A stretch of DNA of 64,000 nt from a virus. Both the position numbers and the translations under genes were made by a program. Position 1 is the first letter of the stretch, and every line of letters begins with the position of its first letter. The notes under the pieces are model-generated. The model had not been told where the DNA came from. It saw nothing but the letters and a program-made list of their open reading frames with translations, and searched no databases. The stretch lies in IMG/VR virus record IMGVR_UViG_3300032308_002092, positions 64,001 to 128,000 of that record. One strand, given 5' to 3'. Shown one piece after another: positions 29,880 to 44,036 of the stretch.

Positions 29880-31183
29880 GGAGCGTCCTTCTTATTATCT
29901 CGTCTGTTATTAGTTTTGCTGCCTCTTTGTGTATCACAGAGTTGTCGCGTGGCACAGTGGTTACCCTATCTATGGACCCACTGGAACTCAATAGCAACAC
30001 ATTCACCTGATCTCCATTGGAGCTTAGTTGTATTACTTTAGCGTAATGGTTTCCGTAGCTGCAGTAAACAAACGGAGAATCTCCATAGCCTTCGCACAAC
30101 CAGAAGTGCCAGTCGTCGCGAAGAAGAGAATTAGGAGGCATAGACACGTCAGGTTTGGTCTTAGGACGAGTGAACACTATTGTGTCTTCACCGTCTAGTC
30201 CTTTGATTGTCTTAATCGATGAATTTGCCATCTTTTATACAATGCCCCCTGAAGTAGTAGCCTTGTTTATCTAGGCACTCTTTTCTGTCTTGATCGATAC
30301 ACGACTTCACCATAAATAGAAACATCACAGAAACTAAGATCGTCAGCGCCAAGCTGTATGCAAACCTTGTCACGTAATTGTCCTTATCCATAGCCTACTC
30401 TTGTTGTGCTTTATTGAGATGGTCGGCAGCTGCTCTAGTCCACTCCACGTAGATTTGATCAGGGTACAGTCTGCCGAACCACGTTATGTCGCAGCCCGGA
30501 GTCCAGAAGTACCAGTTCCAGGTAGGGTGGTCGTTTAGCGCGTTGTTCCTAGCTGCTTTAGATCTGTTTGCTTCTTCTTGTAGCTTTTGCAGATCACCTT
30601 TTAGGTAGTAAAGTACTGCGTCTTCCATGCCTCTTATTGTTTCAAAGGCTTTGAGAACGTGTTTCTCCCATAGTTTACCAACGCCGTGTTGTCTATTGAG
30701 CATCAGCGTAGCATAAACTAAGTTCAACTGGTAGTGCTTGTAGACTGTAAGTGCCTCAATCAAAGCAAGTGGGCCTCTCAACCAATTGAGCAAGAAGTAC
30801 CATATGATGCGCCAGCCAGCAAAGTGCATCTTTAGCTTAAGGGTTGGGATACAGGCTATCAGCTGAGCAAACCCCAGTACTCCCAGCTTGTTTCGGCCAT
30901 CTGTGGACGACGGTGTTATCAGCCCACCAGTTTTAACTACGTATCTAAGCATAAGGATGTGGTCGATGGTTGACCCGCCAAGCATAGCACCTAGGAACAT
31001 GTCCCTGCTAGATGAGTTTGGGTAATCCTTTTGCGCTATTGCCGCTTCTGGGTTGCGCCAGACTCTGCCGTCTCGGTCAATGCACTGAGACACGTATAGA
31101 GATGCTTCGTAGTCGCCAACATGAGAAAACATCCCTGCGTATAGGGTGCTGTCGCCATGTACTTCTTTGTATTTTGGGTTCAT
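29872..31183 (-). CDS. Hypothetical proteins (29872..30231; 30395..31183, 262 aa)
   Basis: Clean ORFs; AGGAGG SD before 31183. Confidence 0.6.
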
Positions 31184-31252
31184 ATATCCTCCTACTCAGG
31201 GTTATACCGAGAGGGTGGGGTGGTGTGGGCGCGCCGTAGCAGTGTCAGGTGT

Positions 31253-31312
31253 AGACTCGTCAGTCGCGTATACAACGCGAGACCAAGAGCGTGGCTACTC
31301 TTGGTTTCGTCT
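31253..31312 (-). ncRNA. Type II hammerhead ribozyme HH-a
   Basis: AGAC-GAAA-CCAAGAG(8)CUCUUGG-UC/-UCGCGU(5)ACGCGA-CUGACGA-GUCU; GUC cleavage between 31281 and 31280. Confidence 0.92.
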
Positions 31313-31819
31313 TTAGCCAACCAAAGCCCTAAGGTGCTCTGGGATTGAGGAGAGGTCGAGTTGCTTTGCTTTGTTTTGGCGAGGGGTCTTAGCTGGCTTG
31401 CTAGCTACCATCTCAGCCCTAACATTAGCAATGAAGTTTTTCACTTCAACGATCTTAGTTTCTTCTGCGCCTGAAGCAATAAGATTCTTGAGTACCTCAG
31501 TTGCTTGCTTGATCTGTGGGTTAGTACGGCTACCAGGGTTTTTAGCTTCATACTTGCCGCCGCCGTTGATCTGAGGTGCCTTATTGAACCAGTTAGCTAC
31601 GACGCTAGAAGCGTAAGACCTGAGTGCTTTGTCGTCATCTAGCTTACCAGCCGAGCGCTGTGCCAAGACGACTTCGCCAGAAATGAAGCCTTCAAGCATA
31701 AGGCTAACGATCTCACGACGTTGCTCTTCAGTTACGTACGAAGAAATGGGGGCACTACTATTAAAACTAGAACCAAGGACCTGCTTAGTATACGTTACGA
31801 CCGCTTCATTTTGTTTCAT
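31313..31819 (-). CDS. Ribozyme-flanked paralog A (168 aa, unknown function)
   Basis: Shares RSY..S...NW..K.P..NGG.K...KNPGSR and C-terminal DLS.[IL]PEHL..LVG with 40126 and 43512. Confidence 0.85.
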   Translation of the reverse strand: MKQNEAVVTYTKQVLGSSFNSSAPISSYVTEEQRREIVSLMLEGFISGEVVLAQRSAGKLDDDKALRSYASSVVANWFNKAPQINGGGKYEAKNPGSRTNPQIKQATEVLKNLIASGAEETKIVEVKNFIANVRAEMVASKPAKTPRQNKAKQLDLSSIPEHLRALVG

Positions 31820-31843
31820 GGTAAAACTCCTATATAGAAACAT

Positions 31844-31900
31844 TGACTCATCAGTGCTGGAACCTACCAGCAGATACCCTTGGTATCGGGTATTTCGTCA
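31844..31900 (-). ncRNA. Type II hammerhead ribozyme HH-b
   Basis: UGAC-GAAA-UACCC(8)GGGUA-UC/-UGCUGG(6)CCAGCA-CUGAUGA-GUCA; AUC cleavage between 31873 and 31872. Confidence 0.92.
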
Positions 31901-33936
31901 TTAGTCTATTGCTGCGTAGTCATCTGGGAAGAAGGTTTCTTCTTCCATCTGACGGCTATTGAAGTCTAGCTGCTCATACACATCGTCTTCATAGTCGGAC
32001 AAATAGATATAATCTTGGTTGATTTGCACCGTGTTCACGACCATACCATCGGGCATAACCACGGTTGAATTAGGATCTTGTTGCGAAAGAATCTTAATGA
32101 GTTCTGAAACCAGCATATCAAACCTCCTTTATTTACTTGTGCATATTGATTCGGGAATCATGACCTGAGTGTTAGTCTAGTTCCATCTGGCATCGTCGTA
32201 TAGCTTACGTCGGATGGTAAGGCACTGGTCACTCTAGTGAAGGTTTCTAGTTGCTTGCCTTTACCATCGAACGATCGCGCGCAGCCTGTGCCATCACACA
32301 AGATGAATGAGTCTTGGTTGTAAGTCTGAGCCATGCTCTTCATCAAGTCAAACAACGACCAGCCTATGGTGTTAGGCGAACCACTTACAAGCCAAACATT
32401 CTCCATCTGATCTTTGTAAGATCCTCTGACGTACGTAGTTTTAAACCCATTCATCCTAATGAAGAAGCCTAGCTGCTCATGATCCTGCATATTTCTAATG
32501 TCGTCTTTGTCGCTTTTGTCTGCGGAGATCAGAGCGAAGATAGTATCTAAATCTAGTTTCATGTTAACCCCACTTTCGTTTGTTTGCTAAAACACAAAGT
32601 ACACCAAAGAATAAAGATATTAAGAACTTGAAAAAAGCATACTCAAGATTGCCGTTAATCAAATCAAACCATCCAAATACCTGTAGGAAGATACTTACGA
32701 TAAACAGCGCGATGGCTAAGTTCACTTGCCTCTCCTTACGATCAGGAGGATCGCGGTAATTATTTTCTTAAAAAAGTCAATCATCTTTCTCTCCTTCTTT
32801 TTCTGGGTGAAATTTATCGAGCACCTTAGCGAAGATCATCAGCAGCAGTACTGTTACTGCGAGCCCACCGATTATTGATATCGGTATCGCGACTCCAATA
32901 GCTATAACGTAAAGCAATATACTCATTAGCTAACTTCCTCGCTTTCCTCGTAGATGTACCAGTCATTGGGCTTAAGACTAGCTGTCTTCTGCTCATACTC
33001 GTGTTTGCCGTATGAATACGCGAAGGCTCTGCCGTTCCAAACTATGAACGGAGCTGGGTGATCTTTGTGTGAGATCTTAGCTCCCTTGAGGGCCTCAATC
33101 AATGCTTCTTCTAGAGTCATGATCAGCTCCAATCGTTAGGGTCTTTGTTTTTGCCCTTGACTTCTTCGTAGAAGATAATACAAAGCAATCCCACCATGAA
33201 GATGCCACCAAAGAAACCCGCTATAGAAATTGCAGCCATGAATCCTGTTAATGCTGAGTCCACGATATTACTCTCCTAGTATTTGTTGCTCTATTTGTTG
33301 CGTCATATATTTGTCTAACGTGAACTGAATAACATGGTTGTGAACATCTTTTACCTTTAGATAAACCGAATGAGGTGTTAGATCGCCTCTTGAATTCAGA
33401 TAGCAGTTCGCTACTAGCTTAAAGGAATAAGGGGTTTTTGGATGTTTTATGGTCTTAGATACTGTGGTGTACGACTTACCTTTTCGCTTAGCACACTCTT
33501 TAACAGCATAATGGTAGTGAGAGATAAGGGCGTCTAGGGTAAATTCGCTGCCTTCTACTGGACCCAGGCTTAGGTCTATGATTGTTCTATGCTCTCCAGT
33601 AACCGTAAATAAACACATGTTGCTAACCCCTACTCGTTATCGTTGAATAGTATTGGTTTCGGATACTCACTTAAGGTCTTGTGTCTCTGAGTAGAGAAGG
33701 TGTGACATAGAGTCCATCACCACAAGAGTACTCTGCTTGCCATACTTAGACACCATGTCTGCCTTGAGGGAGCGAAACTCAGCTCTACACTTCTCTCGCT
33801 CTGCGACTTCTCTGAAGTATTGTCTACCCTCGGCGGCCTCGTAGTAAGAGAGATCAGCTATGGATACTATAAATTTTTTGATTAGCTCGCAATTGTAGTT
33901 CATGCAACCTCCAATAAGATATTGGATCGGGATCAC
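31901..33936 (-). CDS. Run of small hypothetical early genes (31901..32116, 32158..32562, 32926..33132, 33268..33618, 33667..~33903 and several <60-aa TM peptides)
   Basis: Co-oriented ORFs, several preceded by the CCGA motif and SD. Confidence 0.55.
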
Positions 33937-40012: not shown

Positions 40013-40050
40013 AGTCGTTCCTCCTTATATAGGGGATGGTATCGGAAACC

Positions 40051-40113
40051 GGACTCATCAGCATGGCTATCAGCCATGGACCTAGGATCTCGAGCGAGTC
40101 CTAGGTTTCGTCC
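40051..40113 (-). ncRNA. Type II hammerhead ribozyme HH-c
   Basis: GGAC-GAAA-CCUAGGA...UCCUAGG-UC/-CAUGGCU(3)AGCCAUG-CUGAUGA-GUCC; GUC cleavage between 40079 and 40078. Confidence 0.92.
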
Positions 40114-40125
40114 TCGGTTACGGAC

Positions 40126-40572
40126 TTATCCCACCAGGGATCTCAAGTGCTCGGGTAGTGCGGAGAGGTCCACAGTCTTGGCAGCAGACTTAGGCTGTGG
40201 GCGGTTAGCTTCAATGAACGCTTCGAGCTCAGCTGTAACTTCAGATCCCTTAGCGATCAGAGCCGCTTTGAGAGCTAGAGCTTGCTTGAACTCTGGGCTA
40301 CCAGATCGGCTACCAGGGTTCTTGACTTCGTGCTTGACCCCACCGTTGAGGGCAGGTGACTTACGGAGCCAGTTGCTGAGCAGACCTGAAGCGTAGCTTC
40401 GCGCCTTAGCTTCGCTGTACTCCTTGCTCAAGCTGATCTCTCCGTTCATGAGTCCCGCTACGAGCATACCGATTGCTTCCTTGCGTTGCTCACTAGTTAG
40501 GGTGACTGCTTCCGCAGTTACTCCAACGATTGACTGTACGATCTCTACGACTGCCTTTGATTGTGACTTCAT
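40126..40572 (-). CDS. Ribozyme-flanked paralog B (148 aa)
   Basis: RSYASGLLSNWLRKSPALNGGVKHEVKNPGSR; VDLSALPEHLRSLVG. Confidence 0.85.
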   Translation of the reverse strand: MKSQSKAVVEIVQSIVGVTAEAVTLTSEQRKEAIGMLVAGLMNGEISLSKEYSEAKARSYASGLLSNWLRKSPALNGGVKHEVKNPGSRSGSPEFKQALALKAALIAKGSEVTAELEAFIEANRPQPKSAAKTVDLSALPEHLRSLVG

Positions 40573-40590
40573 ATGTAACACTCCTTAATT

Positions 40591-40647
40591 AGACTCATCA
40601 GTGCCAGAACCTACTGGCAGATACCCTTGCTATCGGGTATTTCGTCT
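40591..40647 (-). ncRNA. Type II hammerhead ribozyme HH-d
   Basis: AGAC-GAAA-UACCC(8)GGGUA-UC/-UGCCAG(6)CUGGCA-CUGAUGA-GUCU; AUC cleavage between 40620 and 40619. Confidence 0.92.
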
Positions 40648-42736: not shown

Positions 42737-43003
42737 TTATATAAGACCTTGTTCACTCAGTTGCTTCATCAGTGAATCATCATTCTTAGACCCAAAGACT
42801 CTCACTACATCCTCATAATCACATAGTTCATCGGGGTCGTCGTGACATACGAACGCTAGTCCTTCGACTGTCTTCCACACTGAGAACTCATATATGCAGT
42901 GAACTCCTGTCTCTACGTAACCATCAGGTTCAGTGATTGAGCCATCGAACATCTTCCCCGCTTCTAACTCTGCAACAAGTTGATCGACTGTGAACTTACT
43001 CAT
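42737..43003 (-). CDS. Acidic 88-aa protein, paralog of 43080..43346
   Basis: TGVH.IY.F.VW.T.EGL.F.C..DPDE shared. Confidence 0.8.
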   Translation of the reverse strand: MSKFTVDQLVAELEAGKMFDGSITEPDGYVETGVHCIYEFSVWKTVEGLAFVCHDDPDELCDYEDVVRVFGSKNDDSLMKQLSEQGLI

Positions 43004-43020: not shown

Positions 43021-43080
43021 AGACTCATCAGTGTGACTCTTAGTCACAGACTATCTTCGTTTCGGAAGATAGTTTCGTCT
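43021..43080 (-). ncRNA. Type II hammerhead ribozyme HH-e
   Basis: AGAC-GAAA-CUAUCUUC(6)GAAGAUAG-UC/-UGUGACU(3)AGUCACA-CUGAUGA-GUCU; GUC cleavage between 43049 and 43048. Confidence 0.92.
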
Positions 43081-43346
43081 TATGCGAGACCTACTGCACT
43101 CAGCTGCTGATCAAGAGTGTCGTCTTCCTTATCCTCCTCGAAGAACCGCTTGACATCGTCGTAAGTTAGTATCTCATCGGGGTCTTCAGTGCATATGAAC
43201 CTCAAACCTTCGTCAGTGTCCCACACCTCGAAGTCGTATATGGAGTGAACACCGGTGCTCACGCCTCCGTGTGACAGGAACTCACCTGCAGTTAGTCTAC
43301 CATCGGCGATCGCTTCTTCTAACTCTCTGACTGTGATCTTACTCAT
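43080..43346 (-). CDS. Acidic 88-aa protein, paralog of 42737..43003
   Basis: Shared motif with 42737..43003; GAGGAG SD. Confidence 0.8.
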   Translation of the reverse strand: MSKITVRELEEAIADGRLTAGEFLSHGGVSTGVHSIYDFEVWDTDEGLRFICTEDPDEILTYDDVKRFFEEDKEDDTLDQQLSAVGLA

Positions 43347-43979: not shown

Positions 43980-44036
43980 AGACTCATCAGTGCAACCACT
44001 TAGTTGCAGATACCCTTGCTATCGGGTATTTCGTCC
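43980..44036 (-). ncRNA. Type II hammerhead ribozyme HH-f
   Basis: GGAC-GAAA-UACCC(8)GGGUA-UC/-UGCAAC(6)GUUGCA-CUGAUGA-GUCU; AUC cleavage between 44009 and 44008. Confidence 0.92.

What the first reader, a model, noticed from the sequence alone, without database searches (positions are those of the whole stretch)
31281..31872. Gene bracketed by two ribozymes: candidate self-excising, circularisable mRNA (paralog A, 592 nt)
Seen: ORF 31313..31819 has HH-b ending ~25 nt before its ATG and HH-a directly after its stop. Double cleavage releases 31872 to 31281 (592 nt), beginning with stem I-CUGAUGA-GUC and ending with GAC-GAAA-stem III-UC. Established: hammerhead cleavage leaves 5'-OH and 2',3'-cyclic phosphate ends, which are the substrates for RtcB and for hammerhead reverse ligation, as in retrozymes, viroid-like circles and engineered Tornado constructs. 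Inference: the two halves are complementary halves of one hammerhead, so GUC/GAC pairing (only 3 bp here) could rebuild a chimeric ribozyme with the whole gene as the loop of stem II. That would give an exonuclease-resistant circular mRNA encoded by a DNA phage. This is my best candidate for an undescribed system.
Basis: partly seen in the sequence, partly recalled or inferred. Interest (0 to 1): 0.95.

Follow-up and report, generated by a model that had tools for sequence, protein, structure and literature searches.

The report
Hammerhead ribozymes bracketing a phage gene
Two genuine self-cutting hammerhead RNA motifs sit on either side of a small early gene of unknown function in a 151-kb tailed phage. 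They most likely cut a long message into a single-gene, hairpin-capped linear mRNA, a layout known in phages since 2011, and nothing found here shows that the piece becomes a circle.

Summary
ORF 31313-31819 (minus strand, 168 aa) is flanked by two complete type II hammerheads, at 31845-31899 and 31254-31311. Their cleavage sites (31873|31872 and 31281|31280) would release exactly the 592-nt RNA described. The window, and the whole 151-kb phage genome, holds six such ribozymes, against 0.005 expected by chance. All six are on the coding strand and intergenic. All three stems covary, and both flanking ribozymes are kept in a 51%-identical ortholog contig.

Each ribozyme is complete on its own, and a 2-3 bp open stem II is normal for type II hammerheads. 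In other phage arrays it is each ribozyme's own stem II that stays paired, not the chimeric one. The ends of the excised RNA show no extra complementarity. The phage encodes no RtcB or RNA ligase. The paralogs were duplicated as whole ribozyme plus gene, not from cleavage site to cleavage site.

Gene-flanking hammerheads in phages were described by Perreault et al. 2011, who looked for circular products and detected none. This scan has met the same layout in at least 31 other genomes.

Verdict: a clean new member of a known kind. Circular mRNA remains untested; RNA read data were unavailable.

The parts
31845..31899 (-). It cleaves between 31873 and 31872. Stem III carries the promoter-like motif CCCGATAC (31890-31883).
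   Evidence: Sequence read. RF02276 scores 26.1 bits. MFE folding gives stems I and III. Two double compensatory changes in stem I relative to the ortholog L020.
31827..31831 (-). Shine-Dalgarno AGGAG, 7 nt before the ATG at 31819. It lies in the 53-nt leader that remains after cleavage.
   Evidence: Sequence. The leader is identical in L020.
31313..31819 (-). ORF of 168 aa (P0001). It belongs to a phage-only family of unknown function that ends ..D[LI]S.[LI]PEHL..LVG. It is mostly helical.
   Evidence: No Pfam or PHROG hit. Homologs are viral hypothetical proteins only. The AF2 model has pLDDT 78.6 and no PDB match. The only BFVD hit is an uncharacterised phage protein.
31254..31311 (-). It cleaves between 31281 and 31280 and starts 1 nt after the stop codon. 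Loop I UGUA can pair with UACA directly after stem II.
   Evidence: The ortholog L020 has a ribozyme at the same place in which all three stems are changed compensatorily, including stem II GGC/GCC.
31201..31246 (-). GACACTGCTACG motif (31246-31235) plus a promoter-like CTCGGTATAAC (31211-31201), ahead of the next gene (30395-31183).
   Evidence: The same 12-mer follows the homologous gene in unrelated phage contigs, where a terminator hairpin stands in the place of the 3' ribozyme.
40592..40646 (-). 5' hammerhead of the paralog B unit. It cleaves at 40620|40619.
   Evidence: RF02276 scores 29.4 bits.
40126..40572 (-). Paralog B (P0002, 148 aa).
40052..40112 (-). 3' hammerhead of the paralog B unit. 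It cleaves at 40079|40078. The promoter-like TCCGATAC follows at 40046.
43981..44035 (-). Hammerhead leading paralog C (P0003, 43512-43961). It cleaves at 44009|44008.
43022..43079 (-). Hammerhead after the 88-aa gene 43080-43346 and ahead of gene 42737-43003. It cleaves at 43049|43048.

Best explanation
The two elements are independent, self-sufficient type II hammerhead ribozymes. They belong to a set of six that punctuate the leftward early-gene cluster of this myophage. As the polycistronic transcript is made, each ribozyme folds locally: stem I and stem III hairpins, a 3-4 bp stem II, and possibly a short loop I-tail pseudoknot. It then cuts after C17.

For this gene the result is a linear 592-nt monocistronic mRNA. 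Its 5'-OH end sits at the base of the stem I hairpin, followed by a 53-nt leader with a strong Shine-Dalgarno. Its 2',3'-cyclic-phosphate 3' end sits at the base of the stem III hairpin. Cleavage therefore uncouples the gene from its neighbours, much as a natural RiboJ-type insulator would, and gives it defined, hairpin-protected ends.

The 3' ribozyme occupies the position where homologous loci in other phages have an intrinsic terminator hairpin. The 5' ribozyme carries in stem III the promoter-like CCGAWA motif used upstream of many genes of this cluster. Promoter-initiated and read-through transcripts may therefore converge on nearly the same 5' end.

Shown: the anatomy, the covariation, conservation in an ortholog, and the generality of the layout in phages. 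Inferred: cleavage in vivo, stabilisation or insulation as the benefit, and promoter activity of the embedded motif.
For: - The catalytic core is canonical and all stems are perfect. There are six hits against 0.005 expected by chance.
- RF02276 supports two of the six ribozymes.
- In nine ribozymes, 117 of 117 stem cells are paired, with compensatory changes in stems I, II and III.
- The ortholog contig L020 (51% aa identity) keeps both ribozymes, with different stems and an own-matched stem II, GGC/GCC.
- All six ribozymes are on the coding strand. Each starts 0-5 nt after a stop codon, and five of six are followed by SD+ATG within about 25 nt.
- More than 119 IMG/VR stretches carry the same subtype. 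33 loci hold two or more copies, most spaced 250-1400 nt apart. Half of those ribozymes are followed by SD+start within 35 nt.
- Each ribozyme's own stem II is fully paired in 61 of 70 cases. The chimeric stem II is fully paired in 7 of 35 adjacent unlike pairs.
- Literature: clustered hammerheads flanking single prophage genes cleave in vitro and in vivo, and processing into single-gene mRNAs was proposed (PMC3088659). Two type II hammerheads about 310 nt apart are active in vivo in D. vulgaris (PMC8782182).
- Homologous loci have a terminator hairpin followed by GACACTGCTACG at the place where this locus has the 3' ribozyme followed by GACACTGCTACG.
Against: - There are no RNA data for this phage, so cleavage in vivo and the fate of the products are unobserved.
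- Rfam scores are below the gathering threshold, and the 3' ribozyme is not reported by Rfam at all.
- The pseudoknot that supports fast cleavage in many type II hammerheads is weak for the 5' ribozyme: 3 Watson-Crick pairs plus 1 G-U.
- About 43 loci with more distant homologs of the gene have no ribozyme, so the ribozymes are not required for this gene family.
- A stabilising rather than destabilising effect of 5'-OH ends depends on the unknown host.
Confidence: 0.7

Rival explanations
1. Circular mRNA. After double cleavage the 592-nt RNA is closed, either by host RtcB or by the reverse hammerhead reaction on a chimeric ribozyme. That chimera would combine stem I + CUGAUGA + GUC from the 5' end with GAC + GAAA + stem III + UC from the 3' end. 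The product would be an exonuclease-resistant, translatable circle.
For: - The end chemistry is right for RtcB (established; restated in PMC8782182).
- All six ribozymes of this phage share GAC/GUC, so any chimera can form 3 bp.
- The L020 chimera GUC x GGC is still pairable through a G-U pair.
- The loop I-tail contact would stay within the excised RNA.
- Perreault et al. 2011 raised the same possibility.
Against: - Perreault et al. could not detect circular or spliced products.
- The predicted probability of the chimeric stem II is 0.03 (linear) and 0.015 (circular).
- The ends are no more complementary than shuffles, z -0.24, unlike viroids, retrozymes or Tornado constructs.
- The phage genome has no RtcB, Rnl1 or Rnl2.
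- In other phage arrays the chimeric stem II is fully paired in only 7 of 35 unlike neighbours, and some arrays alternate GAC/GUC with GUC/GAC.
- The homology between paralogs starts at the 5' edge of the whole ribozyme, not at the cleavage site.
- None of 64 cleavage-to-cleavage units has a stop-free circular reading frame.
- A re-formed chimeric hammerhead would itself be cleavage-competent (own knowledge).
Confidence: 0.08
2. Regulated decay or timing switch. Cleavage mainly serves to inactivate or time expression. For example, 5'-OH-triggered degradation in a host with RNase J-type decay, or Mg2+- or factor-dependent cleavage that shuts off early genes. On this reading it does not stabilise the message.
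For: - The ribozymes are confined to the early, anti-defence-like cluster. A SAM-lyase-like gene lies two genes upstream.
- glmS-type 5'-OH-dependent decay is known in Firmicutes (own knowledge).
- The function of phage hammerheads is openly unresolved (PMC6155905).
Against: - Cleavage sites lie outside the ORFs and leave the SD and ORF intact, flanked by terminal hairpins. This arrangement looks protective rather than destructive.
- No ligand-binding or switch element is apparent. The core is constitutive consensus.
Confidence: 0.12
3. Non-functional or selfish passengers. The hammerheads are inactive relics, or mobile intergenic elements with no benefit to the phage.
For: - They are distributed sporadically among homologous loci. 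About 43 of 47 loci lack them.
- They score below the Rfam threshold.
Against: - The cores are perfect and the stems are maintained by compensation across 51%-diverged orthologs.
- Their placement between stop codon and SD is precise in all six cases.
Confidence: 0.05

Closest known systems
Clustered hammerhead ribozymes flanking single genes or short gene blocks in prophages (Perreault et al. 2011, PLoS Comput Biol, PMC3088659; restated in de la Pena et al. 2017, PMC6155905)
   Same: Several co-oriented hammerheads, including type II, lie in intergenic regions of phage DNA. They bracket small genes of unknown function. Processing into single-gene mRNAs was proposed and circular products were considered.
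   Different: This is a new phage and a new flanked gene family. Three paralogous 'ribozyme + gene' cassettes lie in one genome. A promoter-like motif sits in stem III of the gene-leading ribozymes. None of this changes the kind of system.
Type II hammerhead family (Rfam RF02276, clan CL00010)
   Same: The core is CUGANGA...GAAA with a UC cleavage site. Stems I and III are hairpins. Stem II is open and very short, and a 3' tail can pair with loop I.
   Different: Scores are 26-29 bits, below the gathering score of 37, and only two of the six are reported. Stem II here is 3 bp GAC/GUC, and the pseudoknot is weak in several copies.
Desulfovibrio vulgaris type II hammerheads loc 2 and loc 3 (Olzog et al. 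2021, cyPhyRNA-seq, PMC8782182)
   Same: Two type II hammerheads about 310 nt apart flank a small phage-like gene. Both were shown to cleave in vivo.
   Different: Those are in a bacterial chromosome (prophage-like region) and were verified experimentally. Here there are no RNA data.
Ribozyme-derived circular RNAs: viroids and satellites, retrozymes, Tornado constructs
   Same: A unit bounded by two self-cleaving ribozymes yields 5'-OH and 2',3'-cP ends that RtcB or tRNA ligase can join.
   Different: Those systems have a rod-like or designed stem that juxtaposes the ends, and their repeat unit runs from cleavage site to cleavage site. Here there is no end-pairing beyond 3 bp, and the duplicated unit is the whole ribozyme plus the gene.
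RiboJ-type synthetic ribozyme insulators
   Same: A hammerhead just upstream of the SD removes variable upstream RNA and leaves a hairpin plus a defined leader.
   Different: RiboJ is engineered from a type III satellite hammerhead. These are natural type II elements. They also sit at 3' ends of genes.

Membership tests
Hammerhead ribozyme, type II (RF02276) | Conserved catalytic core C3-U4-G5-A6-N7-G8-A9 and G12-A13-A14 | tested here: met
   CUGAUGA with GAAA in the 5' ribozyme, and CUGACGA with GAAA in the 3' ribozyme (N7 is free). The same holds in all six copies.
Hammerhead ribozyme, type II (RF02276) | A15.1-U16.1 pair followed by H17 (not G) at the cleavage site | tested here: met
   The last A of GAAA pairs with the U of UC| in both ribozymes. 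H17 is C.
Hammerhead ribozyme, type II (RF02276) | Three helices, with stems I and III closed by loops and stem II open, supported by covariation | tested here: met
   MFE folds give stems I and III. In nine ribozymes, 117 of 117 stem cells are paired, with compensatory changes in all three stems.
Hammerhead ribozyme, type II (RF02276) | Score at or above Rfam's curated gathering threshold (37 bits) | tested here: not met
   26.1 bits for the 5' ribozyme. The 3' ribozyme has no hit at E<=10. The covariance model deletes the stem II columns in its alignment. This is a sensitivity limit of the model and not a missing core feature.
Hammerhead ribozyme, type II (RF02276) | Pseudoknot between loop I and the tail 3' of stem II (present in most, not all, type II members) | tested here: inconclusive
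   The 3' ribozyme has 4 Watson-Crick bp (UGUA/UACA) directly after stem II. The 5' ribozyme has only 3 Watson-Crick pairs plus 1 G-U, 6 nt downstream. Across 170 ribozymes, 15% have 4 or more bp, against 8% with permuted tails.
Hammerhead ribozyme, type II (RF02276) | Self-cleavage activity | not testable with these tools
   Needs in vitro transcription or end-specific RNA-seq.
Clustered gene-flanking hammerheads of phages (Perreault 2011) | Two or more co-oriented hammerheads in intergenic regions of phage DNA, bracketing single genes or short blocks | tested here: met
   Six ribozymes lie on the coding strand of a myophage early cluster, and two pairs bracket single genes. The same layout occurs in 33 IMG/VR loci.
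Ribozyme-generated circular RNA (viroid / retrozyme / Tornado-like) | Helix or rod that brings the two cleaved termini together | tested here: not met
   Only the 3-bp GUC/GAC is available. Duplex energy of the ends is -7.5 kcal/mol, against a shuffle mean of -6.9 (z -0.24). Pair probability is 0.03 for the linear RNA and 0.015 for the circle.
Ribozyme-generated circular RNA (viroid / retrozyme / Tornado-like) | A ligase for 5'-OH / 2',3'-cP ends is available | tested here: inconclusive
   The phage genome (91% complete) has no RtcB, Rnl2-type or T4 Rnl1-type domain. The host is unknown and may have RtcB.
Ribozyme-generated circular RNA (viroid / retrozyme / Tornado-like) | The repeat or propagation unit runs from cleavage site to cleavage site | tested here: not met
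   Similarity between paralogs begins at the GAC of the complete 5' ribozyme and ends at the stop codon. The 3' ribozymes are unrelated to one another.
Ribozyme-generated circular RNA (viroid / retrozyme / Tornado-like) | Back-junction RNA molecules observed | not testable with these tools

The most novel reading that the evidence does not exclude
A fraction of the ribozyme-excised 592-nt (and 541-nt) mRNAs is circularised in the infected cell, by host RtcB acting on the 5'-OH / 2',3'-cP ends held together by the universal GUC/GAC stem II of this phage's six hammerheads. This would give translatable, exonuclease-resistant circular mRNAs from a DNA phage.
Probability: 0.07. Interest if true: 0.85.

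Novelty: new member of a known kind. Interest (0 to 1): 0.3.

Why it matters
What bacterial and phage hammerheads are for is still an open question (de la Pena 2017, PMC6155905). This locus is a clean, compact test case.

- It has three paralogous 'ribozyme + gene' cassettes.
- An ortholog keeps both flanking ribozymes through compensatory change.
- A terminator-for-ribozyme substitution is visible by comparison with other phages.
- A candidate promoter sits inside stem III.

It offers concrete, cheap experiments to decide between processing or insulation and circularisation. As it stands it adds an example and some negative evidence against the chimeric-ribozyme circle. It does not add a new mechanism.

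Tried and rejected
- **Rfam, whole window:** no hit at gathering thresholds. A 4-kb E-value scan also missed the hammerheads. Only a genome-scale RF02276 search and a 691-nt scan recovered two of the six.
- **blastn against the phage collection:** no match. Exact-pattern scans for the leader and for the stem III module in IMG/VR also found nothing. The only close relative in hand is therefore the ENA contig L020. The contig of the closest homolog, P0005, had no DNA available. Its intergenic gaps of 86 and 69 nt fit ribozymes, but that is only an inference.
- **RNA read evidence:** No junction or end data could be obtained.
- **Protein function:** Pfam, PHROGs, the ESM Atlas, an AF2 model and Foldseek against PDB and BFVD gave nothing beyond 'phage hypothetical protein'.
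- **Other ribozyme classes around homologs:** none at Rfam gathering thresholds in 20 loci.
- **Rolling-circle translation:** none of 64 units has a stop-free circular frame, and unit lengths are not enriched for multiples of 3.
- **Long-range helix in the MFE of the 592-nt RNA:** GUCAAU pairs with GUUGGC, which are the Val-Gly codons. I judged this to be chance, because end complementarity is not above shuffles.

Full report
**1. Observation.**

On the minus strand the region reads as follows.

- Stop codon of a 71-aa gene.
- GAC-GAAA-UACCC(GAUACCAA)GGGUA-UC|UGCUGG(UAGGUU)CCAGCA-CUGAUGA-GUC.
- A 25-nt leader with AGGAG.
- The ORF from ATG 31819 to TAA 31313.
- One A.
- GAC-GAAA-CCAAGAG(UAGCCACG)CUCUUGG-UC|UCGCGU(UGUAU)ACGCGA-CUGACGA-GUC.

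Both elements have the full hammerhead core (CUGANGA, GAAA, A15.1-U16.1, C17) in the type II permutation. Stems I and III are hairpins and stem II is open.

A descriptor requiring the core, the UH site and the stems finds six elements in the window. All six are on the minus strand. The mean over 200 dinucleotide shuffles is 0.005. The whole 151-kb phage genome contains no others.

The Rfam type II model reaches 29.4 bits (40584-40647) and 26.1 bits (31841-31898), below its gathering score of 37. It does not report the other four, including the 3' ribozyme of this finding. In nine ribozymes (six here, two in L020, one in L016) every one of 13 scored stem positions is paired in every copy. There are two to five pair types per varying position.

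**2. Context.**

The contig is a tailed phage. It has a tail sheath, a baseplate protein, ribonucleotide reductase and an HNH endonuclease. The genome is 151,207 bp and 91% complete.

The ribozymes lie in a leftward cluster of small genes. A SAM-lyase-like gene, typical of an anti-restriction early region, lies two genes upstream.

The six ribozymes form three pairs. Two pairs tightly bracket paralogs of one protein: P0001 (168 aa) and P0002 (148 aa). The third pair brackets paralog P0003 plus an 88-aa gene.

The family has no Pfam or PHROG match, and its homologs are viral hypothetical proteins only. The AF2 model is helical (pLDDT 78.6) and has no PDB neighbour.

**3. Comparative evidence.**

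- The ENA contig L020 encodes a 51%-identical ortholog in the same synteny: SAM-lyase-like gene, a 68-aa gene, then the ortholog. It has ribozymes at both flanks. The 5' one has a different stem III, a UA| cleavage site and two double compensatory changes in stem I. The 3' one differs in all three stems, including stem II GGC/GCC, and keeps the CUGACGA core.
- A 31%-identical homolog in L016 has one upstream hammerhead, with stem II GUC/GAC.
- About 43 other loci with 27-40%-identical homologs have no hammerhead and no other Rfam ribozyme. Several of them have a terminator hairpin after the gene, followed by the motif GACACTGCTACG. That same motif follows the 3' ribozyme here.
98 of these pass the structural descriptor, and 33 carry two to six ribozymes, most spaced 250-1400 nt apart. 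Half are followed by SD+start within 35 nt.

Gene-bracketing by this hammerhead subtype is therefore common in phages.

**4. Test of the 'two halves of one ribozyme / circle' idea.**

(a) A very short open stem II is the family norm. The Rfam consensus has 2 bp. Perreault et al. characterised an active type II ribozyme with a 1-bp stem II.

(b) I re-detected ribozymes with no stem II requirement. In adjacent pairs with unlike stem II, each ribozyme's own stem II is fully paired in 61 of 70 cases. The chimeric stem II (upstream 3' strand with downstream 5' strand) is fully paired in only 7 of 35. Several arrays alternate GAC/GUC with GUC/GAC, which precludes the chimera.

(c) For this unit, ViennaRNA gives the chimeric stem II a probability of 0.03 in the linear RNA and 0.015 in the circle. 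The 25-nt end regions are no more complementary than shuffles, z -0.24. The same holds for the other units and for L020.

(d) The phage has no RtcB, Rnl2-type or Rnl1-type ligase. The host is unknown.

(e) The three paralog cassettes are similar from the first base of the complete 5' ribozyme to the stop codon. Their 3' ribozymes are unrelated to one another. The unit was therefore copied as DNA 'ribozyme + gene', not as a cleavage-to-cleavage RNA unit.

(f) None of 64 units has a stop-free circular reading frame.

(g) Perreault et al. [quoted passage not shown]

None of this excludes RtcB-mediated circles in vivo. Nothing specific supports them either. RNA reads could not be consulted.

**5. 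Most likely mechanism.**

The most likely mechanism is co-transcriptional self-cleavage at six intergenic sites, which converts a polycistronic early transcript into gene-length linear mRNAs. Each mRNA begins with 5'-OH + stem I hairpin + leader with SD. Each ends with stem III hairpin + 2',3'-cyclic phosphate.

The precise packing points to insulation and end definition rather than destruction. The ribozymes start 0-5 nt after a stop codon, the SD follows within about 25 nt, and the ORFs are left intact. A ribozyme also replaces a terminator found in homologous loci.

One further inference comes from the octamer [CT]CCGA[AT]A[CGT]. It occurs 24 times on the minus strand of the window against 3 times on the plus strand. 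Many copies lie some 35-100 nt upstream of start codons. It also lies in stem III of the four gene-leading ribozymes, but in only 2 of 162 hammerheads from other phages. If it is a promoter element, transcripts would start close to the cleavage site. Promoter-derived and read-through-derived mRNAs would then share nearly the same 5' end. This is untested.

**6. Comparison, novelty and score.**

The element is a member of the type II hammerhead class by every structural criterion, although it scores below Rfam's threshold. The arrangement is the clustered, gene-flanking layout described in 2011 (PMC3088659). That layout was reviewed in 2017 (PMC6155905) and shown to be active in vivo in D. vulgaris (PMC8782182).

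Earlier notes of this scan report the same layout in at least 31 other genomes, with the same verdict from follow-up agents. I did not rely on those notes as evidence.

It is a new member of a known kind. Interest is modest (0.3). The value lies in a well-defined test locus and in the negative comparative evidence against the chimeric-ribozyme circle.

Noticed in passing
window 43476, 42217, 40923, 39263, 31246 (minus strand) and 4290 (plus strand); also L001, L007, L009-L012, L015, L022: The 12-mer GACACTGCTACG (GACACCGCTACG in L001) recurs five times in the early cluster. It is usually followed 15-60 nt later by the CCGAWAC motif. It is also conserved downstream of the homologous gene in unrelated phage contigs, often right after a terminator hairpin. 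It is probably a shared regulatory or promoter-upstream element of this phage group. Its function is unknown.
   Followed up: partly
window, minus strand, e.g. 40859, 40046, 34782, 33663, 21887, 10635; inside hammerhead stem III at 44026, 43066, 40637, 31890: The promoter-like octamer [CT]CCGA[AT]A[CGT] occurs 24 times on the minus strand and 3 times on the plus strand. Many copies lie some 35-100 nt before a start codon, often followed by TATATA. It is embedded in stem III of the four gene-leading hammerheads, but in only 2 of 162 hammerheads from other phages. A variant, CCCGAAG, is kept in the L020 ortholog's stem III.
   Followed up: partly
L075, L121, L060, L108 (IMG/VR hammerhead arrays): Neighbouring type II hammerheads in some arrays alternate stem II GAC/GUC with GUC/GAC. 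This would prevent cross-pairing between adjacent ribozymes and may be a selected anti-misfolding feature.
   Followed up: partly
window 32158-32562 (minus strand): A 134-aa protein matches the S-adenosylmethionine lyase family (PF23780, 32.6 bits). It is a likely anti-restriction early gene, two genes upstream of the ribozyme-flanked ORF. The synteny is kept in L020 and in the P0005 contig.
   Followed up: no
whole window; L016, L020: Rfam RF02276 at its gathering threshold misses all six hammerheads here, and those in L020 and L016. Type II hammerheads with a 3-bp GAC/GUC stem II are systematically under-called by the curated model.
   Followed up: yes
L002:1584-2639 (minus strand): A phage contig carrying a distant homolog of the flanked gene has an array of nine tRNA genes next to it. 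One of them is scored as tRNA-Sec-like.
   Followed up: no
L016:2753-2818: A 31%-identical homolog in another phage is also preceded by a type II hammerhead, with stem II GUC/GAC. It is followed by a terminator-like hairpin rather than a second ribozyme.
   Followed up: partly
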